Part shown: positions 39,207 through 58,187 of the stretch, in pieces
How the letters are laid out: each line of letters begins with the position of its first letter
How positions within the stretch are numbered: the first letter of the stretch is position 1
Source: Candidatus Nomurabacteria bacterium
GTDB taxonomy: Bacteria > Patescibacteriota > Minisyncoccia > Phycocordibacterales > UBA9973
Direction of reading: 5' to 3'
DNA length: 64,000 nucleotides
NCBI GenBank assembly: GCA_963832025.1
Contig: CAWHSF010000003.1
Location: 207,665-271,664, forward strand
Made by a program: the position numbers and the translations under genes
Notes under the pieces: generated by a model
What the model saw: the letters and a program-made list of their open reading frames with translations, nothing else
Databases searched by the model: none
Told to the model about the DNA's origin: nothing

Positions 39207-39232
39207 TCACTCATCTTAACATAGAATTTTCT

Positions 39233-39268
39233 CTTGTCCGACAACAAAATTCCCCGTTGCCGGACAAG
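39233..39268 (-). repeat. family H palindromic repeat after the efflux operon
   Basis: CTTGTCCG-acaacaaaattccccgttgc-CGGACAAG. The reverse complement closely matches 53515-53551. Confidence 0.65.
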
Positions 39269-39274
39269 TAGTTT

Positions 39275-40956: not shown

Positions 40957-41657
40957 ATATGATTAATTATTCTTTTAATATGCGGATCACGTTCTGCCAG
41001 TAATCCATCTTTAATAAAAAGTATTCGGTCAGCGTGTTCAGCTACATCTGGTTCGTGTGTAATGAGCACGATGGTTCGTCCTAAGTCTTTATTTAATTTT
41101 TGAAAAGTTCCTAAAACAATTTCACTGGTTTTTGAATCTAGGTTTCCAGTAGGTTCATCAGCTAGAATGAGGGATGGGTCGTTTACCAAAGCACGGGCGA
41201 TAGCAACTCTTTGAATTTGCCCCCCAGAGAGTTGATTGGAAAGATTGAAGAAATGTCCTTCGTCCAAACCTGCCAGCAAAAGAACTTTTTTTGCTCTTTC
41301 TTCTCTTTCCGGTGACTCAATTCCTTCATAAATAAGTGGGAGCATTACATTGCGCAAAACAGTCGTTCTGGGAAGTAGGTTGAAAGATTGAAAAACGAAA
41401 CCAATTTTGTCTTTGCGAATTTCTGCCAACTCATCATCAGAGAGAGTCGAGACATCCTTGCCATCCAATAAATATGTCCCGCTCGTCGGATTATCCAATC
41501 CACCTAAAATATGCATCAAGGTTGATTTTCCGGAGCCGGAGGGTCCCATGATTGCCACAAATTCTCCATCTTTTATGGTGAAGCTTATTCCTCTCAAAGC
41601 TTCAAATTCAATATCTCCAGTTTTATATGTTTTTTTTATGTCTTTTATCTCTATCAT
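40953..41657 (-). CDS. ABC transporter ATP-binding protein (MacB/LolD-type)
   Basis: GPSGSGKST; [15 protein letters not shown]; [11 protein letters not shown]. Confidence 0.9.
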   Translation of the reverse strand: MIEIKDIKKTYKTGDIEFEALRGISFTIKDGEFVAIMGPSGSGKSTLMHILGGLDNPTSGTYLLDGKDVSTLSDDELAEIRKDKIGFVFQSFNLLPRTTVLRNVMLPLIYEGIESPEREERAKKVLLLAGLDEGHFFNLSNQLSGGQIQRVAIARALVNDPSLILADEPTGNLDSKTSEIVLGTFQKLNKDLGRTIVLITHEPDVAEHADRILFIKDGLLAERDPHIKRIINHI

Positions 41658-41663
41658 AAGTGT

Positions 41664-43865: not shown

Positions 43866-44282
43866 TTAAATTGATAATGTCGCACCGTTTATTGATTGAC
43901 TCCTACTAATTTGTTTCATTAAATATTTTAATGACAAGAAGCAAACAAAGAAAAGAGAAAGAGTAAAAATAATACTCATTGTTGGTAAAGATTCAGCCAG
44001 AGAAAAAGACAATTCTTTCCAGTAGGTCAACATTGATCCACTATCGGAAAAGATTAAAGAGAAATATTCATAAAAACCAGAATGTGCAAAATCACTTAAC
44101 AACATTTGGAAGGCCGGTATTAGTCCCACTGAAGACAGGAAAAGGATTAAGGACAGAGACCACAATTTTAATCTAATCATTCTTTTTTGGTGTGCATTTA
44201 TGATTTTCCATACGGAAAAAGACAACTCCGGGCTGGGTTCGTATACTGCCTTTTTAAATAATTTTATTAATTTGTCTTGCAT
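43866..44282 (-). CDS. putative anti-sigma factor (membrane protein)
   Basis: 138-aa ORF with 3 TM segments, immediately downstream of the ECF sigma gene. Assignment rests on position only. Confidence 0.35.
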   Translation of the reverse strand: MQDKLIKLFKKAVYEPSPELSFSVWKIINAHQKRMIRLKLWSLSLILFLSSVGLIPAFQMLLSDFAHSGFYEYFSLIFSDSGSMLTYWKELSFSLAESLPTMSIIFTLSLFFVCFLSLKYLMKQISRSQSINGATLSI

Positions 44283-44320: not shown

Positions 44321-44944
44321 TTATTTATGGCTCACTTCAATGCCTCCTTGCGAAGGAGAGGCAGATATTATTTTTTTAAGTTCTAAAAGAGCTCTACGGT
44401 GTTGGCTTTTGACCGTGTTTAGCGGTTTGTCTAGAATTTTTCCTATTTCTTCAAAAGTCATTTCTTCTTGGTAATGAAGAATCAAAACTTCCTGATAATC
44501 TAAACGTAATTTTTCCAAAGTCTTATTCAAAAATTGACTGTCTTGTAATTTTTGCAAGGTCACGTCCGGCAACAGATCTTCTGCAGGAATATTTTCGGCA
44601 AAAGAATTTATATTTTCTTCGTCCTTGTTTTCCATGTCGGAAAACAGCAAACTTCTTTTTTTTCTCAAAAAATCGGTTACGGTATTTTTTGTAATAGTAA
44701 AAATCCAAGTTTTGAAACTTGCCTTTTTTGAATCAAAGTTACGAATATTTTTCCATATTTTTATAAAAACTTCTTGAACTATGTCTGGTGCATCGTTGCG
44801 ATTTGTTAGGCGTGCAGTAAAGTTATAAAGAGAAGTGGTATAACGATTTATGAGAATTTTTAACGCTTCTTGTTCTCTGTTTTTGTATAAAATAAGAATT
44901 TCTTCGTCACTTGATTTAGTTAGGTCACTATCATCATTTTCCAT
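44321..44944 (-). CDS. ECF-type sigma-70 family RNA polymerase sigma factor
   Basis: Region 2 DIVQEVFIKIWKN; region 4 HTH MTFEEIGKILDKPLNTVKSQHRRAL. Start MENDDSD chosen from the promoter spacing. Confidence 0.8.
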   Translation of the reverse strand: MENDDSDLTKSSDEEILILYKNREQEALKILINRYTTSLYNFTARLTNRNDAPDIVQEVFIKIWKNIRNFDSKKASFKTWIFTITKNTVTDFLRKKRSLLFSDMENKDEENINSFAENIPAEDLLPDVTLQKLQDSQFLNKTLEKLRLDYQEVLILHYQEEMTFEEIGKILDKPLNTVKSQHRRALLELKKIISASPSQGGIEVSHK

Positions 44945-44950
44945 GCCTTT

Positions 44951-44959
44951 AATATAGCA
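44951..44959 (-). promoter_or_regulatory. extended -10 box TGcTATATT, 6 nt before sigma-factor ATG 44944
   Basis: Minus strand: tgtgctatatt-aaaggc-ATG. Confidence 0.5.
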
Positions 44960-44984
44960 CAAATTTTTTTGGTTTTTCCATATT

Positions 44985-45034: not shown

Positions 45035-48000
45035 TTATTCTTGTACTGTTGTTGTGGTAGTTTTCTTTCCGAGAGGTTGATGATCTACAACAGTGGTAGT
45101 TCTTTTGATAAAAGGAGCTGTGGGCGGTGGAAGATATGCTGGATTTATTTTTCTTTGTCCGTAAATATATTTTGCTAACAATATCAATATAAGAATAAGT
45201 ATGATTATGATAAGCCAACCAAATATATTTGTCGGGAAGAAGCCAGCTCCGAAAGCGAATGCTCCAAGAGGGGAGGTCGTTCCGGTTGTTGCACTCCATA
45301 CTTGAGCGGAAACATTCGCATTGACTGATTGAGAATTACCGGAAGGGTCAACATAGTTTAAGGTTGCAGGGAAGTTGAGCAATGTGCCTGCGGTTGCGTC
45401 GCTGTTTACCTGTGTTTTTACTGTTACCACACCGGAAGCTCCTCCTCTAAGTGTTCCCAAGTTGAATACCAAAGTATTTCCGAGAACATTAGGATTGATT
45501 GGGTTCGATGAAAGATAAGTTACTTCTTGTGGCAACACTAACTGCAAACTTAGATTGGTAGCAGATCCTGTTCCGACATTTTGATAATTTATAGTGTAAT
45601 TAATTTCATCTCCTGGGTGTGGTCTGGTGTTGTCAATTGTAGGAACAATCGGTTGGTCTCTATTTACCGAAGAAGTAATAAGAAGAAGTGAACTTGCAGC
45701 TGTCCTGTTTACATATCTGATTACTGTCGTCGGACTCTGTGCCCCAGTTGTGGTAAAGCTTAATATATAACCATTACTACTTTGATAGGAATCTTGCGCA
45801 ATTGCTCGGAAGTAATAAGTTGTTCCAGGGCTTAATCCACTCAATGTGTCTGTGTGTATAACCGATGGCAATGTTCCGACAGCTGTGGTTGTAGTCGTAT
45901 TTCCCAAATTTATAGTTGGGCCCCACTCAAACCAAGCATTTATTGGGCTGGAATCAGAACTGCTAATTAAGGAGTTCAATTGTGCACTGGTGCTTAATAC
46001 TTGTGTTGCTTGCGTGGTGACGACACTTAGATTGCTTGCTATTGGTTGTGGATATATTGGTGTTGGAACGGGATATACCGGAACTATTGGTTGATAGTTT
46101 TGATTTACATAAACAGTGGTTGAACCAGTCGCTTGCTGTCCGGTGCTACTAGTACAAACAATATTGTAAGTAGTTGTATAAGTTAGAGCTCCAGTAGTTA
46201 TACTGCCGGAAGTACTTTGTGTTCCGGAAAGTCCATTGTAACCACCAGTAATACTACAATAACTTGCGTTAGTTGAGTTCCAAGAAATAATACTGGAACC
46301 ATTATAGTTGACACTGGAAGGATTTGCGTAAATGTTGACGGTAGGTTGCAAAATTTGATTTTGATTTACATAAACAGTGGTTGAACCAGTCGCTTGCTGT
46401 CCGGTGCTACTAGTACAAACAATATTGTAAGTAGTTGTATAAGTTAGAGCTCCAGTAGTTATACTGCCGGAAGTACTTTGTGTTCCGGAAAGTCCATTGT
46501 AACCACCAGTAATACTACAATAACTTGCGTTAGTTGAGTTCCAAGAAATAATACTGGAACCATTGTAGTTGACACTGGAAGGATTTGCGTAAATGTTGAC
46601 GGTAGGAATCTGGTTTTGAATTTGATTTACCGACACCGTCGCTGAAGCACTTACTTGTGTTCCATTGGTTCCATAACAAGTAATTGAATAGGTTGTAGTT
46701 CCACTTGGTACTACAACTCCGGAACCACTAGTTGCTGTACTGGAAGTCCAGTAAGCCTGACAAGATGTTGCGTTATTTGAACTCCAAGTAAGTGTAGAGT
46801 TTGCTCCGGATTGGATGGAAGTTGGGTTGGCGTAAAGAGAAACGGTTGGGTTTTGATATTGAATCTGATTTACCGACACCGTCGCTGAAGCACTTACTTG
46901 TGTTCCATTGGTTCCATAACAAGTAATTGAATAGGTTGTAGTTCCACTTGGTACTACAACTCCGGAACCACTAGTTGCTGTACTGGAAGTCCAGTAAGCC
47001 TGACAAGATGTTGCGTTATTTGAACTCCAAGTAAGTGTAGAGTTTGCTCCGGATTGGATGGAAGTTGGGTTGGCGTAAAGAGAAACGGTTGGGTTTTGAT
47101 ATTGAATCTGATTTACCGACACCGTCGCTGAAGCACTTACTTGTGTTCCATTGGTTCCATAACAAGTAATTGAATAGGTTGTAGTTCCACTTGGTACTAC
47201 AACTCCGGAACCACTAGTTGCTGTACTGGAAGTCCAGTAAGCCTGACAAGATGTTGCGTTATTTGAACTCCAAGTAAGTGTAGAGTTTGCTCCGGATTGG
47301 ATGGAAGTTGGGTTGGCGTAAAGAGAAACGGTTGGGTTTTGATATTGAATCTGATTTACCGACACCGTCGCTGAAGCACTTACTTGTGTTCCATTGGTTC
47401 CATAACAAGTAATTGAATAGGTTGTAGTTCCACTTGGTACTACAACTCCGGAACCACTAGTTGCTGTACTGGAAGTCCAGTAAGCCTGACAAGATGTTGC
47501 GTTATTTGAACTCCAAGTAAGTGTAGAGTTTGCTCCGGATTGGATGGAAGTTGGGTTGGCGTAAAGAGAAACGGTTGGGTTTTGAATCTGTTGCGCTGCT
47601 ACTGTTACCGTCGCATATGCGGAAGCTTGTGCTCCGGTACTGCTGGTACAAGTAAGATTGTAAGAAGTTGTATTAGCTAAAGCTCCAGTATTAAAACTAC
47701 CGGAAGTATTTTGATTTCCTCCCCAACCATTTGTACCACCACTTGCGATGCAAGATGTTGCGTTGGTGGAATTCCAAGTTAAGATACTTGTTCCATTGTA
47801 AGCTACGGAAGTTGGATTAGCGGAAAGAGAAACTGTCGGCTGAACCTGACCACTCACTGACACCGTCGCATAGGCGGAAGCTTGTGCTCCGGTACTGCTG
47901 GTACAAGTAAGATTGTAAGAAGTTGTATTAGCTAAAGCTCCAGTATTAAAACTACCGGAAGTATTTTGATTTCCTCCCCAACCATTTGTACCACCACTTG

Positions 48001-48967
48001 CGATGCAAGAAGTTGCGTTAGTAGAATTCCAAATTAACGTACTTGTTCCATTGTAAGCTACGGAAGTTGGATTAGCGGTTAAACTGACAGTTGGGGTTTT
48101 TATCTGTTGAGTTACCGACACCGTCGCTGAAGCACTTACTTGTGTTCCATTGGTTCCATAACAAGTAATTGAATAGGTTGTAGTTCCACTTGGTACTACA
48201 ACTCCGGAACCACTAGTTGCTGTACTGGAAGTCCAGTAAGCCTGACAAGATGTTGCGTTATTTGAACTCCAAGTAAGTGTAGAGTTTGCTCCGGATTGGA
48301 TGGAAGTTGGGTTGGCGTAAAGAGAAACGGTTGGGTTTTGAATCTGTTGCGCTGCTACTGTTACCGTCGCATATGCGGAAGCTTGTGCTCCGGTACTGCT
48401 GGTACAAGTAAGATTGTAAGAAGTTGTATTAGCTAAAGCTCCAGTATTAAAACTACCGGAAGTATTTTGATTTCCTCCCCAACCATTTGTACCACCACTT
48501 GCGATGCAAGATGTTGCGTTGGTGGAATTCCAAGTTAAGATACTTGTTCCATTGTAAGCTACGGAAGTTGGATTAGCTGTAAGGTTAACGGTTGGTGTAA
48601 CTACAGTAGGTTGGCAAGAAGCGGTAGTAAAAGAAACCATACTTCCGGACCATGATCCTTGAGGGGCATTGTTGAATTCTGTTTCATAATAATATGTAGT
48701 GTTTTGAGTGAGACCATTTATTACGGCACTGAAATCCGAATACGCAGTATAAGTTTGAGGAGTCGTGGAATATCCGAGAGATGGAGTAGGTCCCCATTCA
48801 AACCAAGCTGAAGTCGGAGTTCCGTTTGGACTTACGTAGCCATTTAAGGTTGCGCTGTTGCAAGTCTGCACTTGATATTGTGCTGCTGCTTTGTTTACAT
48901 TAATAAAAAGCCCGAAAACGGTAACGAAAACGATAAACATGGATATTGATAACTTTTTCATATTCAT
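45035..48967 (-). CDS. giant cell-surface repeat protein (signal peptide, FN3-like ends, 10 Ig-like tandem repeats, DUF11-like domain, C-terminal TM anchor)
   Basis: 1310 aa. N-terminal MNMKKLSISMFIVFVTVFGLF. Two ...WFEWGPT... modules. Three repeat types (A x3, B x5, C x2). C-terminal WLIIIILILILILLAKY anchor. Confidence 0.8.
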   Translation of the reverse strand: MNMKKLSISMFIVFVTVFGLFINVNKAAAQYQVQTCNSATLNGYVSPNGTPTSAWFEWGPTPSLGYSTTPQTYTAYSDFSAVINGLTQNTTYYYETEFNNAPQGSWSGSMVSFTTASCQPTVVTPTVNLTANPTSVAYNGTSILTWNSTNATSCIASGGTNGWGGNQNTSGSFNTGALANTTSYNLTCTSSTGAQASAYATVTVAAQQIQNPTVSLYANPTSIQSGANSTLTWSSNNATSCQAYWTSSTATSGSGVVVPSGTTTYSITCYGTNGTQVSASATVSVTQQIKTPTVSLTANPTSVAYNGTSTLIWNSTNATSCIASGGTNGWGGNQNTSGSFNTGALANTTSYNLTCTSSTGAQASAYATVSVSGQVQPTVSLSANPTSVAYNGTSILTWNSTNATSCIASGGTNGWGGNQNTSGSFNTGALANTTSYNLTCTSSTGAQASAYATVTVAAQQIQNPTVSLYANPTSIQSGANSTLTWSSNNATSCQAYWTSSTATSGSGVVVPSGTTTYSITCYGTNGTQVSASATVSVNQIQYQNPTVSLYANPTSIQSGANSTLTWSSNNATSCQAYWTSSTATSGSGVVVPSGTTTYSITCYGTNGTQVSASATVSVNQIQYQNPTVSLYANPTSIQSGANSTLTWSSNNATSCQAYWTSSTATSGSGVVVPSGTTTYSITCYGTNGTQVSASATVSVNQIQYQNPTVSLYANPTSIQSGANSTLTWSSNNATSCQAYWTSSTATSGSGVVVPSGTTTYSITCYGTNGTQVSASATVSVNQIQNQIPTVNIYANPSSVNYNGSSIISWNSTNASYCSITGGYNGLSGTQSTSGSITTGALTYTTTYNIVCTSSTGQQATGSTTVYVNQNQILQPTVNIYANPSSVNYNGSSIISWNSTNASYCSITGGYNGLSGTQSTSGSITTGALTYTTTYNIVCTSSTGQQATGSTTVYVNQNYQPIVPVYPVPTPIYPQPIASNLSVVTTQATQVLSTSAQLNSLISSSDSSPINAWFEWGPTINLGNTTTTTAVGTLPSVIHTDTLSGLSPGTTYYFRAIAQDSYQSSNGYILSFTTTGAQSPTTVIRYVNRTAASSLLLITSSVNRDQPIVPTIDNTRPHPGDEINYTINYQNVGTGSATNLSLQLVLPQEVTYLSSNPINPNVLGNTLVFNLGTLRGGASGVVTVKTQVNSDATAGTLLNFPATLNYVDPSGNSQSVNANVSAQVWSATTGTTSPLGAFAFGAGFFPTNIFGWLIIIILILILILLAKYIYGQRKINPAYLPPPTAPFIKRTTTVVDHQPLGKKTTTTTVQE
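46101..46622 (-). repeat. 2 x 261-bp near-identical tandem coding repeat (type C)
   Basis: tgatttacataaacagtggttgaacc... recurs at 46101 and 46362. Confidence 0.85.
46624..47585 (-). repeat. 4 x 243-bp tandem coding repeat (type B), apparently identical at nucleotide level
   Basis: gatttaccgacaccgtcgctgaagc... starts at 46624, 46867, 47110 and 47353. Units 2 and 3 read identical by eye. Confidence 0.9.
47586..48600 (-). repeat. interleaved type A / type B repeat units (A3, A2, B1, A1) with long identical stretches
   Basis: ttgaatctgttgcgctgctactgttaccgtcgcatatgcgg occurs near 47580 and again near 48320. Confidence 0.75.
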
Positions 48968-49952: not shown

Positions 49953-51495
49953 ATGCGAAATTTAATTAAATCCAAAATAACAATTAGTATTATTGTCTTT
50001 ATACTGCTTTTGGTGGGTGTGTTTTTACTCTTTTCTCATCATAGCCCTAAGTATCAATTTGTCTCTGTAACACGTGGTCCTATAACAGAAGTAGTTTCCC
50101 TGACCGGCAACACGACACCGAGCCAAAGTGTCGCTTTGTCTTTTAGCAGTAGTGGAAATATTTCCAATATATATTCTGCACTCGGAAAGAATGTGTCTGC
50201 GGGCGAGGTACTTGCGGAGTTGGATACCAGCAATCTAGTGGCTCAATTGCACCAAGCACAAGCAAACCTAGACACCGAACAAGCAAAATTGGAGGGATTA
50301 CAAGTCGGAGCCAGTCCCGAGAACATAGCGGTATCACAAACAGCTCTTGATAAAGCAAACCAAGACCTTGCGAATATGTATTCTAGTATTATTGATACTT
50401 CTACCGATGCATACGCCAAAGCAAATGACGCAGTCAGTACACAAATGAGTCAACTTTTTACCAATACCAATGGAACAATGCCAAGTCTTTCATATAGTAC
50501 TTCTGATTCTCAAGCTCAAACGAATGCTCAATTAGAATTGTCCTATTCACAGACAGCTTTGAGTAAATGGTCTTCCGAGCTCACAAACAATGATGGTTCT
50601 AATACCAGTTTAGACACTCTCTTAACGGATGGAATTTCTTATCTGGCAACCATACGAGAATTATTAAACAGTGTTTCTACTACACTCCAAAGTACTACTA
50701 ATTTGAGCGCGACAACCCTAGCCACATATAAGATGAATGTTTCTACTGCGCTTAGTGAAGTAAATTTAGCTACGACAAATCTAAATACGCTTTCTCAAAA
50801 TATTTCTTCGCAAAAACTAACCGTCTCGCAAGCGGTCAGCCGCGCTTGCTCTAACAAAAGCCGGTTCCACGGCAACTGATATTGCTGCGCAACAGGCCCA
50901 AGTAGAGGAGGCTACCGCTAGTGTTCAGAGCGCCCAAGCGCAACTGCAAAATGCCGAAATTGTAGCGCCGATAAGTGGAACGGTAACGCAGTTCGATGCA
51001 AAGATAGGACAGTTTGCGTCTTCAAATACACCTCTTGTTTCTATTATGTCTGATGCCGGATACGAGGTGGATGGAGGTGTTTCCGAAATTGACATAGGAA
51101 AAGTTGCGATCGGCGATACTGTGTCAATGACCCTGGATGCCTTTCCCGGGGAAACTTTTACCGGTTCAGTTTTCTATATTGCCCCGGCCGAAACAAATAC
51201 CGGCGGAGTTATAAGTTATCTAATTAAAATTGCATTTAGCAAACCAGACCCTAGGATAAAGAGTGGCTTGACCGCAAATATTGATATACAAACAAAACAA
51301 GACAATAATGTATTGATTCTTCCGCAATACGCCATTTTACAAAATGACCAAGGAACATTTGTGGAGACGTTGGTAAATAATAAAATTGTTCAAACTCCAG
51401 TTGTTTTGGGGATACAAGATGAAACAGGTAATGTTGAAGTGACTTCCGGCGTGAGCGAAGGAGAGCAGGTTATCAATATCGGGCTGAAGTCTTAA
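49953..51495 (+). CDS. HlyD/MacA-family adaptor-like protein, interrupted by a +1 frame change near 50828-50840
   Basis: ORFs 49953-50879 and 51046-51495. The +1 frame reads ...AALALTKAGSTATDIAAQQAQVEEATASVQSAQAQLQNAEIVAPISGTVTQFDAKIGQFA... across the gap. Confidence 0.7.
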
Positions 51496-51528
51496 TTGAA
51501 ATCCCAACTGAGTCCTAATTTAGCAGTA

Positions 51529-52236
51529 ATGATTGATTTACATAATTTAAAAAAAGAATATCAAGAGGAAGAAACTCCGACGTTGGCTTTACGTGACGTG
51601 ACTTTTTCTGTTGAAAAAGGAGAGTTTGTTTCTATTATGGGTCCTTCGGGTTCAGGTAAATCAACTCTTCTGCATATTTTAAGTTTTCTTGACAGACCAA
51701 CCGGCGGAGCTTATACCTTTCAAGGTAAAAGTATTGATGACATGACTGACAAAGAACTTGCAGAAGTGCGCAATAAAGATATGGGTTTCGTTTTTCAATC
51801 TTTTAATTTACTTTCTCGTCTGACAGTTTATGACAATGTTGAAATCCCCCTTATCTATTCCGATATTCCGCCTAAAGAAAGACAAAAATTAGTGGAAGAG
51901 GCAGTAAAAGCGGTAGGACTTGAAGAAAAATTATATACCGAAGCCGGAAAACTTTCCGGAGGGCAAAAACAGCGTGTCGCCATTGCCAGAGCTCTAGTGG
52001 TTGACCCAAATGTTATTTTTGCCGATGAGCCGACCGGTAACCTTGATTCGCAATCTGGATTACAAGTTATGGAAATTCTTGAATCATTGCACGACAAAGG
52101 TCGCACGATAATACTAGTGACTCACGAGACAGAAACCGCAAAATTTGCAGATCGTATTATTAAAATAAGAGACGGAATGGTTGAGAGCGACGAAAAAATT
52201 GTTGCTCTACGTCATATTCGTGGCAGTTTAAAATAA
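51529..52236 (+). CDS. ABC transporter ATP-binding protein (MacB/LolD-type)
   Basis: GPSGSGKST; [15 protein letters not shown]; [11 protein letters not shown]. Start [11 protein letters not shown] chosen by comparison with the paralog at 40953-41657. Confidence 0.9.
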
Positions 52237-52237
52237 T

Positions 52238-53492
52238 ATGTTATTTAGAGACGCTTTTAAAACTGCAACGCGAAGTCTTGATGCATGGCAAGATGCGTTC
52301 AATCTTGACGATGCTCGGTATTGTTATCGGTATCGCCTCCGTTATTATTTTGATGTCAATCGGGCAATCAGCGCAAGATTTGATTTTAAATCAAGTGGAA
52401 TCCATCGGCTCCAATCTAATTATTGTCATACCCGGCGCTCCAGCCAATGGAAAATTTTCTTCGCCGGCGGCAGCGCAGGGAATTGTCATCACCAGTCTGC
52501 AACAGCGAGACGTGGAGGCACTGTCTCGCGAACCGTCAATCGATTATGCCGTGCCGGAAGTGCGTGGACAAGCAGATGTTGTTTATGGGAACAACGATGT
52601 GACGGAAGGTTTTACCGGTTCTACCGCGGATTTTTTTACTGTCAGTAATTTAGCCAAAGTTTCTGCCGGGCAAACTTTTACCAAAAGTGATGTCGATTCA
52701 GCCAATCATGTCGTTGTCATCGGTCCCGATTTAGCCAAGACATTATTTGGAGCAAACATAAATCCGATTGATAAAATAATTCGTTTAAAAAATGTTTCCT
52801 TCCGAGTGGTTGGAGTTTTGGCGAAAGGTGGCACCGGAGCCTTTGGCGTTGATATTGGAAACTTGGTAGTGATGCCGATCACAGTTGCCCAGACACAACT
52901 TTTAGGAATTAATTATTTTAATGTTATCGTTGTCCAGGCTGATGCTCAGTACGATAGTACTTTCGTAAAATCTCGCGTGGAATTTATTTTGGAACAGGAC
53001 CACGGTATTACTAATTCTAATAAAGATGATTTCACTATTGATACTCAGGAAGATATTTTGTCTTTACTTGGAAATATCACATCAATCTTGACTCTCTTTT
53101 TGGCGGCGATTGCTTCTATCTCGCTTTTGGTCGGGGGAATCGGCATTATGAATATAATGTTGGTTTCGGTTACCGAAAGAACGCGCGAAATTGGACTACG
53201 TAAAGCTGTCGGTGCCACCAACGGAGATATTTTAAAACAATTTTTAATTGAATCAGTCTTGCTAACGCTTTTTGGCGGCGTGATTGGTATCGCAATAGGT
53301 GCAGGAGTGGTGGGGTTGGTTTATTTTGCTATTTCAGTTTTTGATCCGTCGCTCGGCTGGGTTTTCGCCTTTCCTATTTCCTCGGTAATTCTGGGGCTTC
53401 TCGTTTCCGGTATTGCCGGTATTGCCTTCGGTATTTATCCTGCGCAAAAAGCCGGTAAGAAAAATCCGATTGATGCATTACGTTACGAATAA
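52238..53492 (+). CDS. MacB-type ABC transporter permease (FtsX-like), N-terminus displaced by a +1 frame change near 52274-52281
   Basis: MLFRDAFKTATRSL (ATG 52238) followed by +1 frame MHGKMRSILTMLGIVIG reproduces the 23-residue N-terminal length of the paralog at 39727-40956. Confidence 0.8.
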
Positions 53493-53514
53493 TTCTTATT
53501 GGACACCAGAATTT

Positions 53515-53551
53515 CTTGTCCGACAATGGAGAATTTTTGTTGTCGGACAAG
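53515..53551 (+). repeat. family H palindromic repeat after the second efflux operon (possible terminator)
   Basis: CTTGTCCGACAA-tggagaattttt-gTTGTCGGACAAG (12-bp perfect arms). Confidence 0.65.
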
Positions 53552-53557
53552 GAGAAT

Positions 53558-54292
53558 TTATCTTTTTAATATTTCGGCAACAATCGCCATGTGGTCGCTA
53601 ACTCCGTCTACCAGTTTAACGTTTGAAGTTTTGTATTCTGGGGTGGTAAAAAGACAATCAACCATATATTGCAATCCTTTAACCCTGTGTAATTTTTGGT
53701 CTAGGCTAGTTTTATATCCCAATGGGATATTGTCTTTATATTTTTTTTCAAGCATGTTAAAAGTTTCATTTCCACGAGGAGCGTTCATGTCTCCACAAAT
53801 AACAAACTCACCGAAGGAGTTTAATTTTTCCAAAAGATTTTTTGCTACTTCTATTTGAAAGGGGCTAGATTCTCCCTCTTTGGTAACCGGTAGGTGAGTA
53901 GTTATAATTTTGTATATTACACCATCAACATTTTTTACGTTCGTCCAGACTAAAGCATAATTTTTTATAAATTTTTCATCAGAGATATATTCATCAAACG
54001 ATTTTAAAAGATTCTCTTCTTTCCCATAATAAAAAATTGAGTCTGAATCAATAATGTTTTTTGTAAAAATCGCAATGCCCTGTCTTTTACCAATCAGCTC
54101 TAAATAATTCTTACTTTTAATATAACTGAAGCAACAAAAATTTCCACTTAAATTCAATTCTTTCTTAAAAAACTCAAAATCTTCTTCCAGAAGTTCTTGA
54201 AAACAAACCACATCAGGTTTTTCTTTTTTTAGAAAACTTAAAACAGTATCATAATGTAAATTATTTTCTATATTAATTGATATCAACTTCAT
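53558..54292 (-). CDS. endonuclease/exonuclease/phosphatase (EEP) family protein
   Basis: 244 aa; ...VVCFQE..., ICGDMNAPRGNE, SDHMAIVAEI motifs. Confidence 0.7.
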   Translation of the reverse strand: MKLISINIENNLHYDTVLSFLKKEKPDVVCFQELLEEDFEFFKKELNLSGNFCCFSYIKSKNYLELIGKRQGIAIFTKNIIDSDSIFYYGKEENLLKSFDEYISDEKFIKNYALVWTNVKNVDGVIYKIITTHLPVTKEGESSPFQIEVAKNLLEKLNSFGEFVICGDMNAPRGNETFNMLEKKYKDNIPLGYKTSLDQKLHRVKGLQYMVDCLFTTPEYKTSNVKLVDGVSDHMAIVAEILKR

Positions 54293-54298
54293 TGTCTT

Positions 54299-54307
54299 AT
54301 TATAGCA
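54299..54307 (-). promoter_or_regulatory. extended -10 box TGcTATAAT, 6 nt before ATG 54292
   Basis: Minus strand: tctgctataat-aagaca-ATG. Confidence 0.55.
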
Positions 54308-54316
54308 GATTTATTT

Positions 54317-55366
54317 TTAGTATTCTTTTGCATTATAGAAGTCTAGGTAAAAAGTTTTCTCCAAAGAATTTATTATTGTCGGGTCCGAAAGAAAAATTCC
54401 CAATTCACGGTTTTTATTGAGAGAAGTATAGGAAAAATTTTCTGAACCGATAAAAGCATTAGTGTCATCAGCCAGAATCATCTTGGCATGAATATAAAAT
54501 TTTTCACCGTGAAAAAGATGCAAATTTACACCCGCATTTTTTAATTCCGCAAAAGCATTTTTATCGGCACTCTGATACGTCATGACCACATTTACGGTTA
54601 CTCCCCGTTTTTCCGCCCGGATGAGTGCATCGATTACCGCAGAGTCCGCCATTTCTTCATTGTAGATATCGAGTTCCTTGGTGGCGCTCTTGATTATTAA
54701 AAGGATGTTTCCATCCGAGCCGGGACTCCAAACCAAATCGTCTCCATTTTCCGCTAAGGTGTTTTGATTAGTCCAATCATTGCCAAAAGTATTTTCTATC
54801 GCTCCGACATCGTTTTGATCCGTATCCAAAATAGCGAAGTCTCTGGCTGTGGCATAATATTCCGGCACGAAATTAAAAGTCATTATCAATGCTTTGTTTT
54901 TATCCACCACCATAGTTTTTTGGTGAGTCAAAGCAAAAAAACCGGGTGTCCAGTGTACTGCGACTCCTCCGGATTTCAAATATACGTATGCCGGCTCGTT
55001 CATTTTTTCTTCTTTGCCGTAATAGCCTTGGTTGATTAATACCCGCACACTTACTCCGCGTTTTTCCGCATCAATCAGCGCATCGGCAATGTCCTTGTCT
55101 TTAAATTCATACATGACCAAATCAATTGAGCTCGTAGAATTTTTTATCATAGCCAATATCGGAGAGATGCCTGCTTCCGGCTCTGTCATCAGAGAAAAAG
55201 TTCCGGCTGGCAGATTTATGTTTGGCAAACTTGCGCGAGTGTTTTCTTGGAGAGGAGTATTGAGCGGATGAGTGTAGGCAAAAATTAAAAAACAGACGAG
55301 AAATACAACCCCAATACAGGCATATATGGGATATTTTTTTATTTTTGAAATAAAACCATCAATCAT
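54317..55366 (-). CDS. phospholipase D-like protein with two HKD motifs and N-terminal TM
   Basis: HQKTMVVD...N and HAKMILADD...GSENFS motifs. Confidence 0.75.
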   Translation of the reverse strand: MIDGFISKIKKYPIYACIGVVFLVCFLIFAYTHPLNTPLQENTRASLPNINLPAGTFSLMTEPEAGISPILAMIKNSTSSIDLVMYEFKDKDIADALIDAEKRGVSVRVLINQGYYGKEEKMNEPAYVYLKSGGVAVHWTPGFFALTHQKTMVVDKNKALIMTFNFVPEYYATARDFAILDTDQNDVGAIENTFGNDWTNQNTLAENGDDLVWSPGSDGNILLIIKSATKELDIYNEEMADSAVIDALIRAEKRGVTVNVVMTYQSADKNAFAELKNAGVNLHLFHGEKFYIHAKMILADDTNAFIGSENFSYTSLNKNRELGIFLSDPTIINSLEKTFYLDFYNAKEY

Positions 55367-55742
55367 CCTTTGAAAGGTTTAAAATTTTTCCGGTATCCAC
55401 ATAAACTTGATACCAGGCAAAAGTGGAATTTTTGCCGGATAAGTTTTGATAAACTTGCACCGTCCAATAAACGCCAAAGGTGTCTTTGTCTGTCGTCGCG
55501 CTTACGCCTATGAGCGGATGCCCGTGTTTCTTTTCGGTTTGGGTGAAGAAGTTTTCTACTTCCGGCAAATCGCTGACTACCTTGATTGCTTGATCCTGAG
55601 TGATTTCGTTCTGGCTTTTATCTAAGACACTGGGAGTGTAAATAAAACCTAGCTCTTGCTCCACTAAATAATAAGCTAGCGCCCCAGCTATGATGGTGAT
55701 AATGAGAAGCGCATAAATAAAATTTACTTTTTTATAAATCAT
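55359..55742 (-). CDS. membrane-anchored small protein (hypothetical, PepSY-like shape)
   Basis: 127 aa; N-terminal TM. Overlaps the downstream PLD gene by 8 nt. Confidence 0.4.
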   Translation of the reverse strand: MIYKKVNFIYALLIITIIAGALAYYLVEQELGFIYTPSVLDKSQNEITQDQAIKVVSDLPEVENFFTQTEKKHGHPLIGVSATTDKDTFGVYWTVQVYQNLSGKNSTFAWYQVYVDTGKILNLSKDD

Positions 55743-55749
55743 TATCTAA

Positions 55750-55758
55750 AGTATAGCA
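55750..55758 (-). promoter_or_regulatory. extended -10 box TGcTATACT, 7 nt before ATG 55742
   Basis: Minus strand: tttgctatact-ttagata-ATG. Confidence 0.5.
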
Positions 55759-55905
55759 AAATTTGGACAAACGAAAAAGCCACAGAGACTCTTCCTAAAT
55801 AATTTAGATAAATCTAAGTGACTTGTGTGATTTGCTTCCGATTGGAAGAAATGTGGGCTTTGGGGGTCCGCGGCGGACCCCCAGTCCCGTGTTCCGCGCC
55901 TTCAG

Positions 55906-56040
55906 CTAGTCGGCCGGCTCGGTGTTGTCAGCGCAGAAGTTGGTGTTGAGGCCGGTGCTACCGCGGGTGTCGGTGAGGCCTTCGCATACGACATTGGCAT
56001 TCGGGTTGGCGCAGGAGGCGCCGAGACAGCGTTTGTTCAT
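55906..56040 (-). CDS. 44-aa Cys-containing peptide encoded in a high-GC islet (foreign-looking)
   Basis: MNKRCLGASCANPNANVVCEGLTDTRGSTGLNTNFCADNTEPAD. 35 of 43 codons after ATG end in G/C. AAGGAG lies 7 nt upstream of ATG. GC stem-loop GGGGGTCCG-cgg-CGGACCCCC lies downstream. Confidence 0.5.
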   Translation of the reverse strand: MNKRCLGASCANPNANVVCEGLTDTRGSTGLNTNFCADNTEPAD

Positions 56041-56153
56041 GGTGTTGCTCCTTGGGGAGAGGCTACCTTCTCGACTCCATAAAACTGGAAGGAACTCTCA
56101 GATAGAGAGTAATATATTTCTCTCCAACATACAAATAAGTTATCCCCACCTAT

Positions 56154-56315
56154 TTACTTAAACGCGAAAGCGAGGAGCACGATAGTGAGAGCGTTCAGAA
56201 CAACCAACGCAATCACTAATGCTGTTTTTGAATGCATCGCGTTGGGGTTGTTTAAAATATATACCGTGTAGATTATCGCAACAATCGCCGCGCCAATAAA
56301 ATTTCCTTTTATCAT
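56154..56315 (-). CDS. hypothetical 53-aa two-TM micro-protein
   Basis: Hand translation: MIKGNFIGAAIVAIIYTVYILNNPNAMHSKTALVIALVVLNALTIVLLAFAFK. Below the ORF-track cutoff. Confidence 0.35.
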   Translation of the reverse strand: MIKGNFIGAAIVAIIYTVYILNNPNAMHSKTALVIALVVLNALTIVLLAFAFK

Positions 56316-56395
56316 AGTTTTTAAATTATTAAATTAATAAAGCATTCGGCCTTTAATGGTTATATTATATCATCTTTCGAAATGAATTTTTCCTG

Positions 56396-56477
56396 CGGAG
56401 GGCAGAGGAGTCGAACCTCTAAGTGGTTTCCCACGATAGTTTTCAAGACTATTGCCATACCATTAGGCGAGCCCTCC
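56396..56477 (-). tRNA. tRNA-Ser (anticodon UGA)
   Basis: Acceptor GGAGGGC/GCCCTCC; anticodon stem-loop ATAGT-CTTGAAA-ACTAT; long variable arm GTGG-GAAA-CCAC; T-arm AGAGG-TTCGACT-CCTCT. Confidence 0.85.
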
Positions 56478-56505
56478 GTGTAATACAGAACAATATCAAT
56501 ATACC

Positions 56506-56994
56506 TTATTGTGCTTTTTTTTCAATCTTTTTTCGTAACCAGCTCTTTTCTAAAAAATGTTCTTCGTAATGACAATTTGGACAAATAAGTTCCAGGTTAT
56601 TTAATTCGTTGCGATTTCTGTTTCTGTCTTTGTGGTGGACTTGCAGAATTTCATATTTGTTATAATTGCATTTTTCGCATTTCAATCCTCTCGCTTTCAG
56701 AAGTTTTAGTTTTAGGGCTTGTTGAGACTTAACTTTGTCTCTCGGACTGCCTAAGTGGTATTTAATGCCTGTTCTTTGTATGTTAGCACAAGCCCTTCCA
56801 CAAGTTTTTTTATTTAATCCAGATAAAATTAATTTTCCGCAAACCGAGCAGGGGATTTCTTTTCTGCAAGATATTCCACGACAAACCAAGCTACAAAAGA
56901 CCTGTCCACTTTTTATTTGGAATGGTCTTCTATAGATTTCCTTACAGCAAACATTACATTTTGTATTCGGTTTTCTTTTGTACGGCTCGCTCAC
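56506..56994 (-). CDS. HNH endonuclease with N-terminal repeated Cys4 zinc-ribbon modules
   Basis: HHKDRNRNRNELNNLELICPNCH; upstream CxxC...CxxxC repeats; GTG start. Confidence 0.7.
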   Translation of the reverse strand: MSEPYKRKPNTKCNVCCKEIYRRPFQIKSGQVFCSLVCRGISCRKEIPCSVCGKLILSGLNKKTCGRACANIQRTGIKYHLGSPRDKVKSQQALKLKLLKARGLKCEKCNYNKYEILQVHHKDRNRNRNELNNLELICPNCHYEEHFLEKSWLRKKIEKKAQ

Positions 56995-57000
56995 TCATCC

Positions 57001-57009
57001 AGTATACCA
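57001..57009 (-). promoter_or_regulatory. extended -10 box TGgTATACT, 6 nt before GTG 56994
   Basis: Minus strand: agtggtatact-ggatga-GTG. Confidence 0.4.
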
Positions 57010-57013
57010 CTTT

Positions 57014-57259
57014 TTATTTAAATGACGAAAGTGCTTTGCGAAAATCTCTTTTTACGTCCGTCCAGCTTTTCTTTGCAATCTTGAAAATGTAGAAAATTTC
57101 TAAAATTCCCACAGTATTCAAGATGAGCAAAACGATAAACCATCCCTTTTGATTGTGCTTGGCACAGAGCCAAAGCGAATAGGCTTTCCATGGAATGGTC
57201 CAAAGAGCCAAGATTAAAATAATGACATTGAAAGCACCCGAACTATATAAATTATACAT
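57014..57259 (-). CDS. small two/three-TM membrane protein (hypothetical)
   Basis: 81 aa; WTIPWKAYSLWLCAKHNQKGWFIVLLILNTVGILEIFYIF. Confidence 0.5.
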   Translation of the reverse strand: MYNLYSSGAFNVIILILALWTIPWKAYSLWLCAKHNQKGWFIVLLILNTVGILEIFYIFKIAKKSWTDVKRDFRKALSSFK

Positions 57260-57294
57260 GCCGAAATAATAACAGAAAAAAGCATTTTATGCTA

Positions 57295-57362
57295 CCCGGT
57301 AGTGAAACTTGGCAAAGTTTTTTAAAACGTGCCGAAGCGCATTGCCAAGTTCTACTACCGGG
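57295..57362 (+). repeat. 21-bp-armed hairpin upstream of yqgF, related to family G arms
   Basis: CCCGGTAGTGAAACTTGGCAA ... TTGCCAAGTTCTACTACCGGG. Followed by TGcTAGTAT (57363-57371), 8 nt before ATG 57380. Confidence 0.55.
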
Positions 57363-57379
57363 TGCTAGTATTCTTTTAT

Positions 57380-57823
57380 ATGAGATTTTTGGGAATTGAT
57401 TATGGGACAAAGAGAATAGGACTCGCAGTTTCTGATGAAAATGGACAAATTGCTTTTCCGAAAGAAATACTCGTCAATGATTTGAATACTTTTAAAACGC
57501 TGGGTGATATAATCAAAACAGAAAAGGTCAAAGAGATTGTTGTTGGCGAGTCGGTGGATTTTTCCGGAAAATTAAACGCGCTGTCTGGCAGAATTGAAGT
57601 TTTTATTTTAGAATTAAAAGAGAAGTTTGGGTTGCCGGTTTACAAACAAAAAGAATTTTTGACTTCCGTGGAGGCCCGCCGTTCTAAAAATAGTAAAAAA
57701 GATTTTAATTCACCTCAATCACACAGCAAAGTAAAACAAATAAAGTCAGGGAGAGTAGATGCTTCGGCTTCCGCATTAATATTACAAAGATATTTAGATC
57801 GCAGAAATAAAACAAATGAGTGA
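57380..57823 (+). CDS. ruvX: YqgF/RuvX-family putative pre-16S rRNA nuclease / resolvase-like protein
   Basis: MRFLGIDYGTKRIGLAVSD N-terminus. The ORF is open from 57329, but that part covers the hairpin. Confidence 0.8.
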   Translation: MRFLGIDYGTKRIGLAVSDENGQIAFPKEILVNDLNTFKTLGDIIKTEKVKEIVVGESVDFSGKLNALSGRIEVFILELKEKFGLPVYKQKEFLTSVEARRSKNSKKDFNSPQSHSKVKQIKSGRVDASASALILQRYLDRRNKTNE

Positions 57824-58187
57824 AATAATCAAATTAGAAGATTTTAAAAAAATTGATATTGCGGTTGGGGAAATTTTATCCGCAGAAAAAGTTCCAGAAA
57901 CTGATAAGTTGCTCAGATTACTGGTTGATTTGGGACCCTCCGACGCCAAGGCTTTGGAGGGCGAAGGAGCCAACGATATAAGACAAATTGTTTCTGGTAT
58001 TGCCGAATTTTTTCCTGATTGCTCGGAGTTAGTGGGAAAAAAGTGCATGTTTGTGGCAAATTTGGAACCCAGAGTGATTCGTGGTCTGGAAAGTAACGGC
58101 ATGTTGTTCGCTGTTTCCGGAGAAGACGGAGAATTTTCTCTTTTAGAACCAAATAACAGCATAAAAGTTGGAGCTCGCGCTAAATAA
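57816..58187 (+). CDS. tRNA-binding domain protein (CsaA/Trbp111-like OB fold)
   Basis: DFKKIDIAVGEILSAEKVPETDKLLRLLVDLG...RQIVSGIAEFF...VANLEPRVIRGLESNGML. Confidence 0.75.
   Translation: MSEIIKLEDFKKIDIAVGEILSAEKVPETDKLLRLLVDLGPSDAKALEGEGANDIRQIVSGIAEFFPDCSELVGKKCMFVANLEPRVIRGLESNGMLFAVSGEDGEFSLLEPNNSIKVGARAK
57936..57975. repeat. GC-rich hairpin segment in-frame inside the tRNA-binding protein gene
   Basis: CCCTCCgacgccaaggctttGGAGGGcgaagg... encodes PSDAKALEGEGAND, between conserved VDLG and RQIVSGI. Confidence 0.45.

What the first reader, a model, noticed from the sequence alone, without database searches (positions are those of the whole stretch)
55855..56075. ~220-bp high-GC islet encoding a 44-aa Cys-containing peptide with canonical SD
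By my count, bases 55861-56040 are 119/180 G+C (66%), in a window that is otherwise about one-third G+C. On the minus strand the islet contains AAGGAG-N7-ATG. This opens an ORF of 44 codons (MNKRCLGASCANPNANVVCEGLTDTRGSTGLNTNFCADNTEPAD, four Cys) in which 35 of 43 codons end in G/C. It finishes with a GC stem-loop (GGGGGTCCG-cgg-CGGACCCCC) lacking a U-tract, the style of high-GC bacteria. This is a complete, compact expression cassette with foreign composition. Candidate explanations are very recent horizontal acquisition (for example from a high-GC host or neighbour), a secreted or modified peptide gene, or an assembly chimera. It lies next to a 53-aa two-TM micro-ORF, a tRNA-Ser and an HNH endonuclease gene.
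Basis: partly seen in the sequence, partly recalled or inferred. Interest (0 to 1): 0.75.

Follow-up and report, generated by a model that had tools for sequence, protein, structure and literature searches.

The report
Foreign high-GC micro-gene insert
A 220-base stretch of foreign, GC-rich DNA that looks like one complete tiny gene (44 amino acids) has been inserted behind a conserved micro-protein gene in an ultra-small (Patescibacteria) bacterium; it is real and recent, but it matches nothing known and there is no evidence that it does anything.

Summary
Window 55853-56078 is 65% G+C between 32-35% flanks. It is the strongest GC peak in the 64 kb (5 SD; next best 56%).

On the minus strand it carries AAGGAG-N7-ATG, a 44-codon ORF (GC3 82%, C3 73%; host genes 34% and 18%) and a perfect 10-bp GC hairpin 23 nt after the stop. 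That ordered combination appeared in 0 of 3000 dinucleotide shuffles.

The host is a Paceibacteria-type CPR bacterium. Two relatives keep the same gene order (53-aa membrane micro-protein 'tm53', then p127, then PLD), but their spacers are about 50 and 93 bp, against 411 bp here. The islet is therefore a lineage-specific insertion. It lies between the tm53 stop and tm53's own terminator, so the ORF is probably a second cistron of that mRNA (inferred).

A separate Logan assembly is 100% identical across the islet, so a chimera is unlikely.

No homologue was found in 5.8 and 1.84 billion proteins, in the genome, metagenome, viral, plasmid or phage collections, or in Rfam. There is no excess RNA folding and no RiPP enzyme within ±16 kb. 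A borderline OmpA-like motif (E about 0.05-0.3) is unproven.

Verdict: a recently acquired orphan micro-gene, donor and function unknown. Modest interest.

The parts
55853..56078 (.). GC-rich islet (about 225 bp, 65% G+C) inserted in an AT-rich intergenic spacer
   Evidence: Sliding GC and maximum-likelihood change points. Absent from the orthologous spacer of L020 and L023.
56048..56053 (-). Shine-Dalgarno-like AAGGAG, 7 nt upstream of the ATG
   Evidence: Read from the sequence. Part of the combined shuffle test. These bases also fall in the ORF's reading frame (codons P-R-S), within 8 upstream codons that already show the C3 bias.
55906..56040 (-). 44-codon ORF 'pep44' (MNKRCLGASCANPNANVVCEGLTDTRGSTGLNTNFCADNTEPAD, stop TAG)
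   Evidence: GC by codon position is 23/24/36 of 44, and C at position 3 is 32/44. Periodicity p=0.0019. No homologue found anywhere.
55861..55883 (-). Perfect GC hairpin (TGGGGGTCCGC / GCGGACCCCCA), 23 nt after the stop, with no U-tract
   Evidence: I5. A perfect 9-bp hairpin occurs in only 17 of 3000 shuffles.
55835..55848 (-). Small hairpin CTTCC-N4-GGAAG in the AT-rich flank just downstream of the islet
   Evidence: Predicted in the fold of 55770-55862 on the minus strand (z=-3.5).
55774..55824 (-). Long AT-rich hairpin (AAGUCAC...GUGGCUU) followed by a U-run. Read as the ancestral terminator of the tm53 transcription unit, now downstream of the islet.
   Evidence: Fold z=-3.5, 0 of 200 shuffles as stable. 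GTGGCTTTTTCG aligns with GTGGTTTTTTG of the L020 spacer.
55741..55770 (-). Promoter-like site (TTGTCC-18-GATAAT) in front of p127. Conserved with relatives and not part of the insert.
   Evidence: The TTTTG(C/T)TATACTT block is conserved in L020, L021 and L023.
55743..56153 (-). Whole tm53-p127 spacer: 411 bp here, against 93 bp in L020 and about 50 bp in L023
   Evidence: Alignment A2 and gap table.
56154..56315 (-). tm53, a conserved 53-aa two-TM micro-protein gene. Presumed first cistron of the mRNA that would carry pep44.
   Evidence: 92% aa identity to L020. 306 tblastn relatives in JGI metagenomes.

Best explanation
The islet is a small piece of foreign DNA from an unidentified high-GC donor. 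It is about 225 bp long and carries one whole micro-gene: ribosome-binding site, 44-codon ORF and a GC-rich 3' hairpin. It entered the chromosome of a Paceibacteria-type (CPR/Patescibacteria) bacterium recently and has not yet drifted toward host composition.

It landed in the spacer behind the conserved micro-protein gene tm53, upstream of that gene's own terminator. It has no recognisable promoter of its own. If expressed, it is therefore most likely transcribed by read-through as a second cistron of the tm53 mRNA and translated from its own AAGGAG site. Transcription would end at the GC hairpin or at the retained AT-rich terminator.

What is shown: the foreign composition, the gene-like anatomy beyond chance, the insertion relative to related genomes, and the position inside the tm53 unit.

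What is inferred: the route of entry (uptake of external DNA and illegitimate recombination, since no repeats or integrase are present), co-transcription, and any translation.

No function in the recipient is supported. The most likely status is a neutral or nearly neutral recent acquisition.
For: Composition and codon usage:
- The GC peak is 5 SD above the window mean and unique in the 64 kb.
- Codon usage is foreign: GC3 0.82 and C3 0.73, against host 0.34 and 0.18.
- Period-3 signal has p=0.0019 and is confined to the ORF (plus about 8 codons upstream), not the islet's untranslated parts.
- The SD, start, complete ORF and hairpin in order occurred in 0 of 3000 shuffles.
- The few non-C third positions are where high-GC bacteria usually place them (Pro CCG, Glu GAG/GAA). 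This point rests on my own knowledge of actinobacterial codon preferences and was not tested here.

Insertion:
- Relatives L020 (JGI) and L023 (ENA) keep tm53, p127 (and PLD in L020) with spacers of 93 and about 50 bp, against 411 bp here.
- None of more than 80 tm53 loci has islet DNA, the peptide, or a long GC-rich spacer like this one.
- The ancestral terminator and the p127 promoter block are retained downstream of the islet.

Assembly and background:
- An independent assembler output (Logan, ERR11523672) is identical across the islet.
- HGT, pili and competence genes are documented for Patescibacteria, and recent cross-phylum transfers are reported as rare (PMC12455944). A PilM gene lies 2 kb away.
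Against: - No donor or homologue was found at protein or DNA level. Foreign origin therefore rests on composition and phyletic absence only.
- ORFs of 44 codons are common by chance in 65% G+C DNA. Two plus-strand frames share the periodicity: an in-register antisense frame that is open over 55831-56079, and the 79-aa ORF at 55922-56161.
- No promoter was found.
- No target-site duplication, terminal repeats or integrase were found.
- The C3 bias starts about 8 codons before the ATG, so the ORF could be the tail of a longer donor gene.
- There is no expression data.
- The Logan contig may come from the same reads as the source assembly.
Confidence: 0.6

Rival explanations
1. The islet is a captured fragment of a larger donor gene, not a gene of its own. 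It would be the 3' part of a coding region plus its terminator hairpin, possibly from an OmpA-like (ArfA-type) peptidoglycan-binding domain gene of a high-GC bacterium. The ATG and the AAGGAG would then be internal codons (Met; Pro-Arg-Ser) that only mimic a start site. The DNA would be non-functional filler.
For: - The C3 bias already holds in the 8 in-frame codons upstream of the ATG (SLSPRSNT, 6 of 8 end in C). The AAGGAG lies inside them.
- Residues 11-35 (ANPNANVVCEGLTDTRGSTGLNTNF) align without gaps to the most conserved OmpA_C motif ('enpsvkveieGhtDerGsaeyNlaL').
- NCBIfam gives LptF E=0.05 and Pal E=0.17.
- PDB gives M. tuberculosis Rv0899/ArfA with 12 of 28 identical residues, E=0.33.
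- Ten composition-matched shuffles gave no hit at all.
- A profile I built from 15 real OmpA-like domains scores 11.2 bits, against a maximum of 6.8 in 5000 shuffles.
Against: - After correcting for about 19,000 families searched, the match is borderline.
- The Pfam OmpA model gave nothing.
- Scores are far below family cut-offs (13 bits against 125-400).
- His, Tyr and the LS..RA part of the motif are missing, and the ORF stops 9 residues after the motif.
- Extending upstream adds only 0.3-0.5 bit.
- The best frameshift 'rescue' adds 2.9 bits among about 100 trials and contains a stop.
- An intact compositional signal argues against long decay of a once-normal OmpA domain.
- The SD, ORF and hairpin order was not seen in 3000 shuffles.
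Confidence: 0.2
2. The islet is a functional peptide gene used by the CPR cell, for example a precursor of a modified (RiPP or bacteriocin-like) or secreted Cys-containing peptide. Export might go through the neighbouring MacB/ABC/HlyD systems.
For: - Strong RBS, four Cys and many Ser/Thr/Asn.
- Two MacB-type ABC/HlyD export systems lie at 39727-43370 and 51046-53492.
- The slot next to tm53 holds other lineage-specific micro-ORFs in a relative, L025.
Against: - No radical-SAM, LanB/C/M, YcaO or similar enzyme lies within about 16 kb on either side.
- No match to any precursor family in Pfam or NCBIfam.
- No signal peptide, leader motif or hydrophobic segment.
- The ABC systems are also present next to the empty site in L020, so they are not linked to the islet.
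- The peptide occurs in a single lineage, so there is no evidence of selection.
- The AlphaFold model is uninformative (pLDDT 58).
Confidence: 0.08
3. The islet is a structured non-coding RNA or cis-regulatory RNA. GC-rich RNA genes stand out in AT-rich genomes, and the ORF would be incidental.
For: - In AT-rich genomes, GC peaks often mark RNA genes (general knowledge).
- The 3' region at 55760-55905 on the minus strand folds with z=-4.5.
Against: - No Rfam family at gathering score or at E up to 10.
- The whole islet folds no better than shuffles (z=-0.15 minus strand, z=-1.64 plus strand).
- The significant folding comes from the terminal hairpin and from the AT-rich ancestral terminator outside the islet.
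- A period-3 C pattern confined to the ORF is a coding signature.
- No RNA gene occupies this slot in 20 relatives.
Confidence: 0.05
4. The islet is an assembly or library chimera, with high-GC DNA from another organism spliced in silico or in vitro into the CPR contig.
For: - The composition jump is abrupt and the piece is very short.
- The Logan contigs break at 56099 and 56388, close to the islet.
Against: - Two precise junctions fall inside one intergenic spacer and leave all flanking genes and signals intact.
- The Logan k-mer assembly of ERR11523672 reproduces the left junction, the islet and 21-24 bp past the right junction at 100% identity.
- The Logan breaks lie in AT-rich sequence, not at the GC junctions.
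Confidence: 0.04

Closest known systems
Horizontally acquired ORFan genes or genomic islets recognised by atypical composition
   Same: Sharp compositional discontinuity, foreign codon usage, absence from the orthologous site of relatives, and no homologues.
   Different: Extremely small: one 44-codon gene in about 225 bp. No integrase, tRNA-edge integration, direct repeats or mobility genes. The recipient is a CPR bacterium, for which recent cross-phylum transfers are reported as rare (PMC12455944).
OmpA-like (OmpA_C / Pal / MotB; M. tuberculosis ArfA Rv0899) peptidoglycan-binding domain
   Same: An ungapped 25-28-residue resemblance to the core motif NP..v.veG.TD.rGs...N..L. It includes the ArfA-type 'GS.G(I/L)N'.
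   Different: Only a quarter of a domain. It lacks the Arg of the binding pair, the His and the Tyr. Scores are far below every family cut-off and there is no Pfam hit. The resemblance may be chance.
Small bicistronic micro-protein operons (a second small ORF translated from its own SD on a read-through transcript)
   Same: An ORF with its own strong SD placed between the stop of a conserved micro-protein gene and that gene's terminator.
   Different: The second cistron here is foreign and unique to one lineage. Co-transcription is inferred only.
Hairpin-only ('I-shaped') terminators described for high-GC bacteria such as mycobacteria (from my own knowledge; their function is debated)
   Same: A perfect GC stem-loop shortly after the stop codon, with no U-tract.
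   Different: No evidence that it terminates transcription in this host. A conventional hairpin plus U-run follows about 40-90 nt further on.

Membership tests
Horizontally transferred islet | Composition and codon usage atypical for the recipient genome | tested here: met
   65% against 38% G+C, 5 SD, unique in the window. GC3 0.82 against 0.34 and C3 0.73 against 0.18.
Horizontally transferred islet | Absent from the orthologous site in related genomes | tested here: met
   L020 and L023 have 93 bp and about 50 bp spacers between tm53 and p127, against 411 bp here. No islet DNA in more than 100 related loci.
Horizontally transferred islet | Identifiable donor or homologue in another lineage | tested here: not met
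   No hit in 5.8 bn or 1.84 bn proteins, in GTDB species genomes, JGI metagenomes or IMG/VR by peptide patterns, or in the plasmid and phage collections. NCBI nt/WGS BLAST was not available.
Mobile element (IS, MITE or integrative element) | Terminal inverted repeats, target-site duplication, or an integrase/transposase | tested here: not met
   No flanking direct or inverted repeats bracket the islet. The neighbouring genes are tm53, p127, PLD and HNH, with no recombinase.
OmpA-like domain (PF00691 and NCBIfam Pal/LptF) | Score at or above the family's curated cut-off | tested here: not met
   13.2 bits against 400 (LptF) and 12 bits against 125 (Pal). No Pfam hit at E up to 10.
OmpA-like domain (PF00691 and NCBIfam Pal/LptF) | Full domain of about 100 aa with the conserved Asp...Arg (TD...LS..RA) peptidoglycan-binding pair | tested here: not met
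   TD is present. LS..RA is replaced by FCADNT and the ORF ends 9 residues later. Frameshift rescue is not supported.
RiPP or bacteriocin precursor | Maturation or immunity genes adjacent to the precursor gene | tested here: not met
   Pfam scan of ORFs of at least 100 aa from 37163 to 63571 found none. 38556-39694, 43866-44282 and shorter ORFs were not scanned.
RiPP or bacteriocin precursor | Match to a known precursor family or leader motif | tested here: not met
   No precursor family in Pfam, NCBIfam or PHROGs; the only NCBIfam hits are two far-sub-threshold OmpA-related matches.
Rfam structured RNA | Covariance-model match, or thermodynamic stability beyond shuffles | tested here: not met
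   No family hit. Islet fold z=-0.15 and z=-1.64.
Canonical intrinsic terminator | GC-rich stem-loop immediately followed by a U-tract | tested here: not met
   The stem is perfect (55861-55883) but on the minus strand is followed by AAAGCCCACA. The AT-rich hairpin at 55824-55774 does have a U-run.
Expressed protein-coding gene | Transcription, translation and purifying selection | not testable with these tools
   No transcriptome, Ribo-seq or homologues for dN/dS. Only sequence-intrinsic signals are available.

The most novel reading that the evidence does not exclude
The islet is a fresh, still unameliorated gene unit taken up from the high-GC organism that this episymbiotic Paceibacteria cell lives on or next to. 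That organism could be an actinobacterium, given the ArfA-like motif and codon style. The islet would then be a molecular tag for the otherwise unknown host. Its peptide, expressed from the tm53 operon, might take part in the interaction.
Probability: 0.1. Interest if true: 0.7.

Novelty: new member of a known kind. Interest (0 to 1): 0.33.

Why it matters
If real and recent, this is about the smallest self-contained unit of horizontal transfer one can recognise: one micro-gene in roughly 225 bp. It sits in a CPR genome, where recent cross-phylum acquisitions are reported to be rare and where the hosts of most lineages are unknown.

Finding the donor in the same sample could point to the physical partner of this bacterium.

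It also shows how a foreign micro-ORF can become expression-ready simply by landing between a conserved gene and its terminator. Without a donor or expression data, it remains an ordinary orphan insert.

Tried and rejected
- Structured RNA. Rfam at gathering score on the whole window and at E up to 10 on 55600-56400 gave only tRNAs and noise. Islet folding is no better than shuffles. Rejected.
- Peptide homology. Nothing from the word-indexed search of 5.8 bn proteins, phmmer against 1.84 bn representatives, or exact look-up. Nothing from peptide-pattern scans of GTDB genomes, JGI metagenomes and IMG/VR, or tblastn against plasmids and phages.
- Other reading frames. A concatenated search of the other five frames against 5.8 bn proteins gave nothing.
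- DNA similarity. blastn against phages and plasmids gave only chance matches of 20-55 nt.
- Mobile-element signatures. No TSD or TIR.
- A recurrent GC-rich element or RNA gene in the same slot. None was found in more than 80 tm53 loci.
- Homology between the islet and the acidic micro-ORF that occupies the same slot in L025. None found.
- OmpA-like lead. Followed with controls. It stays borderline, so I did not file the peptide as an OmpA-like protein.
- AlphaFold single-sequence model. pLDDT 57.7, unusable, so no fold search was run.
- Synteny through the PLD protein in GTDB genomes. Relatives at 43-64% identity were too rearranged to give an empty site. The p127 homologues gave it instead.
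- An apparent split stem, AAAGCCCACA...TGTGGCTTT around the AT-rich flank. Considered and left as a possible coincidence.

Full report
**1. The observation**

Bases 55861-56040 are 118/180 G+C. The richest 180-bp window of the whole 64 kb starts at 55852 (67.2%). The window mean is 37.8% (sd 5.8) and no other peak exceeds 56%. A two-change-point likelihood fit places the islet at 55853-56078 (64.6% G+C) between flanks of 32% and 35%.

On the minus strand the sequence reads AAGGAG (56053-56048), 7 nt, ATG (56040), a 44-codon ORF ending in TAG (55906), and 23 nt later a perfect palindrome, TGGGGGTCCGC/GCGGACCCCCA (55861-55883). No U-run follows that palindrome.

**2. Is it more than chance?**

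An open frame of 44 codons means little in 65% G+C DNA. Two plus-strand frames are also open across the islet. The following signals do count.

- G+C by codon position is 23, 24 and 36 of 44. The permutation test for period 3 gives p=0.0019.
- C alone fills 32 of 44 third positions.
- Fifty-eight long host ORFs have mean GC3 0.338 (highest gene 0.44) and mean C3 0.175. No 44-codon window in them exceeds GC3 0.64 or C3 0.41.
- The periodicity stops at the stop codon and is absent from the islet's untranslated parts. It does begin about 8 codons before the ATG.
- In 3000 dinucleotide-preserving shuffles of the islet, an SD-like site plus a start plus a complete ORF of at least 40 codons appeared 75 times. 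A perfect 9-bp hairpin appeared 17 times. The two together in the right order never appeared.

The period-3 pattern is RNY-like. It is therefore shared by the in-register antisense frame (open over 55831-56079, no start codon) and by the 79-aa plus-strand ORF. The choice of strand rests on the SD, the start, the stop and the hairpin.

**3. Not an RNA gene**

Rfam finds only the five tRNAs in the window. A permissive search of 55600-56400 gives nothing with E below about 1. The islet folds no better than shuffles (z=-0.15 on the minus strand, z=-1.64 on the plus strand).

**4. Host and context**

The neighbours are as follows.

- A PLD-family protein, an EEP-family protein and a 127-aa protein with no family ('p127').
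- An HNH nuclease, DUF5652, RuvX, a tRNA-binding protein and PilM.
- Two MacB/ABC/HlyD sets, an ECF-type sigma factor, ThyA and DHFR.

PLD relatives (43-64% identity) all lie in Minisyncoccia, Paceibacteria, Kaiserbacteria or Adlerbacteria MAGs. The window is therefore a CPR/Patescibacteria chromosome. The same p127 protein is on record on a 430,556-bp contig held by NCBI and ENA.

**5. The islet is an insertion**

Homologues of p127 (59-63% identical) were found on JGI contig Ga0480578_0018895 (L020) and on ENA contig k141_1140931 (L023). Both keep the order tm53 then p127, and L020 continues into PLD. Their tm53-p127 spacers are 93 bp and about 50 bp, against 411 bp in the window.

The block just before p127 (GTGG(C/T)TTTTT...TTTTG(C/T)TATACTT...ATG) is conserved. 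The extra roughly 320-360 bp, including the whole islet, is missing from the relatives.

The micro-protein tm53 is itself strongly conserved. It is 92% identical to L020, and 306 relatives were found in JGI metagenomes. Among more than 80 such loci, none contains islet DNA or the peptide. None has a long downstream spacer that is well above its background G+C. No Rfam family lies in that slot in 20 of them.

**6. Where exactly it landed**

On the minus strand, the AT-rich 93 nt after the islet (55862-55770) fold significantly better than shuffles (z=-3.5, 0 of 200). The fold has a small CUUCC/GGAAG hairpin and a long hairpin that ends in GUGGCUU followed by a U-run. That 3' half aligns with the terminator-like GTGGTTTTTT of L020.

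The islet therefore sits between the tm53 stop codon and what looks like tm53's own terminator. No sigma-70-like promoter is detected between tm53 and the ATG.

My reading, which is inferred, is that the ORF would be transcribed by read-through from tm53 and translated from its own SD.

**7. Assembly artefact?**

Two Logan contigs from run ERR11523672 are 100% identical to the window over 52467-56099 and 56388-57935. The first spans the left junction, the whole islet and 21-24 bp past the right junction. The contig breaks lie in AT-rich sequence on either side of tm53, not at the GC junctions.

Both junctions are clean and fall inside one spacer, which makes a chimera improbable. I cannot tell whether the Logan run is the same read set as the source assembly, and I could not inspect reads.

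**8. Origin**

No donor was found. The peptide has no homologue in any of the following.

- 5.8 billion clustered proteins or 1.84 billion representatives read by phmmer.
- 185,579 GTDB species genomes, 241 million JGI metagenome records or IMG/VR, by peptide-pattern scans.
- Plasmids or phages by tblastn.

The other five frames also match nothing. DNA searches of phages and plasmids give only chance matches. No direct or inverted repeats flank the islet.

Patescibacteria carry pili and competence genes and do receive genes. Recent transfers from other phyla are reported as rare (PMC12455944, read). Uptake of external DNA followed by illegitimate recombination is the simplest route, but it is inferred.

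**9. A weak lead: an OmpA-like motif**

Residues 11-35 align without gaps to the core of OmpA-like peptidoglycan-binding domains.

- NCBIfam gives LptF E=0.05 and Pal E=0.17.
- The PDB gives M. tuberculosis Rv0899/ArfA with 12 of 28 identical residues, E about 0.3.
- Ten shuffled peptides hit nothing.
- A profile built from 15 real OmpA-like domains fetched here scores 11.2 bits, against at most 6.8 in 5000 shuffles.

Against real homology:

- The family was picked after searching about 19,000 models, so the corrected significance is borderline.
- Pfam's OmpA model gives nothing.
- The Arg of the binding pair, the His and the Tyr are absent.
- The ORF ends 9 residues after the motif.
- Upstream extension adds 0.3-0.5 bit, and frameshift rescue is not supported.

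I record this as a lead toward a possible actinobacterial donor gene, not as a family assignment.

**10. Function**

Nothing supports a RiPP or secreted-peptide role. No maturation enzymes were found among the ORFs of at least 100 aa scanned between 37163 and 63571 (38556-39694 and 43866-44282 were not scanned). There is no precursor-family match and no signal or hydrophobic segment. The MacB/ABC/HlyD genes also flank the empty site in L020. A single-sequence AlphaFold model is uninformative (pLDDT 57.7).

**11. Verdict**

- Real, lineage-specific, compositionally foreign insertion: about 0.85-0.9.
- Represents a genuine gene unit of the donor: about 0.6.
- Fragment of a longer gene: about 0.2.
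- The peptide has a function in this bacterium: 0.1 or less.

It is a new member of a known kind, namely a horizontally acquired orphan micro-gene. It is notable mainly for its minimal size, its CPR recipient, and its placement inside a conserved micro-protein transcription unit.

Noticed in passing
window 56154-56315 (-); L020 437-601; L024-L103: The 53-aa two-TM ORF 'tm53' is a real, strongly conserved micro-protein family with no Pfam, NCBIfam or PHROGs match. It is 92% identical to L020 although the adjacent p127 is only 59% identical. 306 tblastn relatives (70-92% identity among the 80 kept) were found in JGI peat, soil, sediment and lake metagenomes. Its exact sequence was not on record as a called gene.
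   Followed up: partly
window 56395-56477 (-) with 56154-56315; L025, L029, L038, L054: tRNA-Ser(UGA) directly upstream of tm53 is a conserved linkage. The ancestral order appears to be RuvX, DUF5652, tRNA-Ser, tm53.
   Followed up: partly
window 56506-56994 (-); L025 2-406; L027 29-523: The HNH endonuclease gene sits between DUF5652 and tRNA-Ser in the window. 78-87% identical copies lie upstream of tRNA-Ser/tm53 in L025 and L027, whose DUF5652 side was not seen. It is absent from L029, L038 and L054, where DUF5652 is 38-125 nt from the tRNA. It is a second lineage-specific, probably mobile, insertion next to the islet.
   Followed up: partly
L025 604-735 and 967-1110: In the closest HNH-bearing relative, tm53 is flanked on both sides by paralogous micro-ORFs of 43 and 47 aa that are very acidic and Asn/Asp/Glu-rich (MDPEDNKNQDEENRTNNENNTSDSDHKDN... 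and MDSDNEEKEDEGNRTNNENNTSDSNHKDN...). The downstream one occupies the same slot as the islet but is unrelated to it. The tm53 surroundings seem to turn over small ORFs.
   Followed up: partly
window 53558-54292 (-): The EEP-family (Exo_endo_phos) gene lies between PLD and the MacB permease in the window. It is missing in L020, where PLD is followed directly by MacB. This is another indel in the same neighbourhood. p127 itself is absent in L025 and L050, where PLD follows tm53 directly or, in L025, after a 47-aa micro-ORF.
   Followed up: no
window 55831-56079 (+): The frame exactly antisense to pep44 is open across the whole islet (83 codons, Gly/Ala/Val-rich, G at 73% of first positions within the pep44 stretch) but has no ATG, GTG or TTG. 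It is a by-product of the RNY-type periodicity, and it has no homologue.
   Followed up: yes
window 56094-56124: Overlapping palindromes (ACTCTCAGATAGAGAGT; GAGAGTAATATA/TATATTTCTCTC) lie in the AT-rich stretch between tm53 and the islet. The Logan contig L001 ends inside them at 56099, and L019 ends at 56388, so tm53 itself is not on either Logan contig retrieved here.
   Followed up: no
window 39727-43370 and 51046-53492: Two separate MacB-type permease, ABC ATPase and HlyD-like sets lie within 16 kb. An ECF-type sigma factor (44321-44962) and a 1310-aa DUF11/Ig-like surface protein (45035-48967) lie between them.
   Followed up: no
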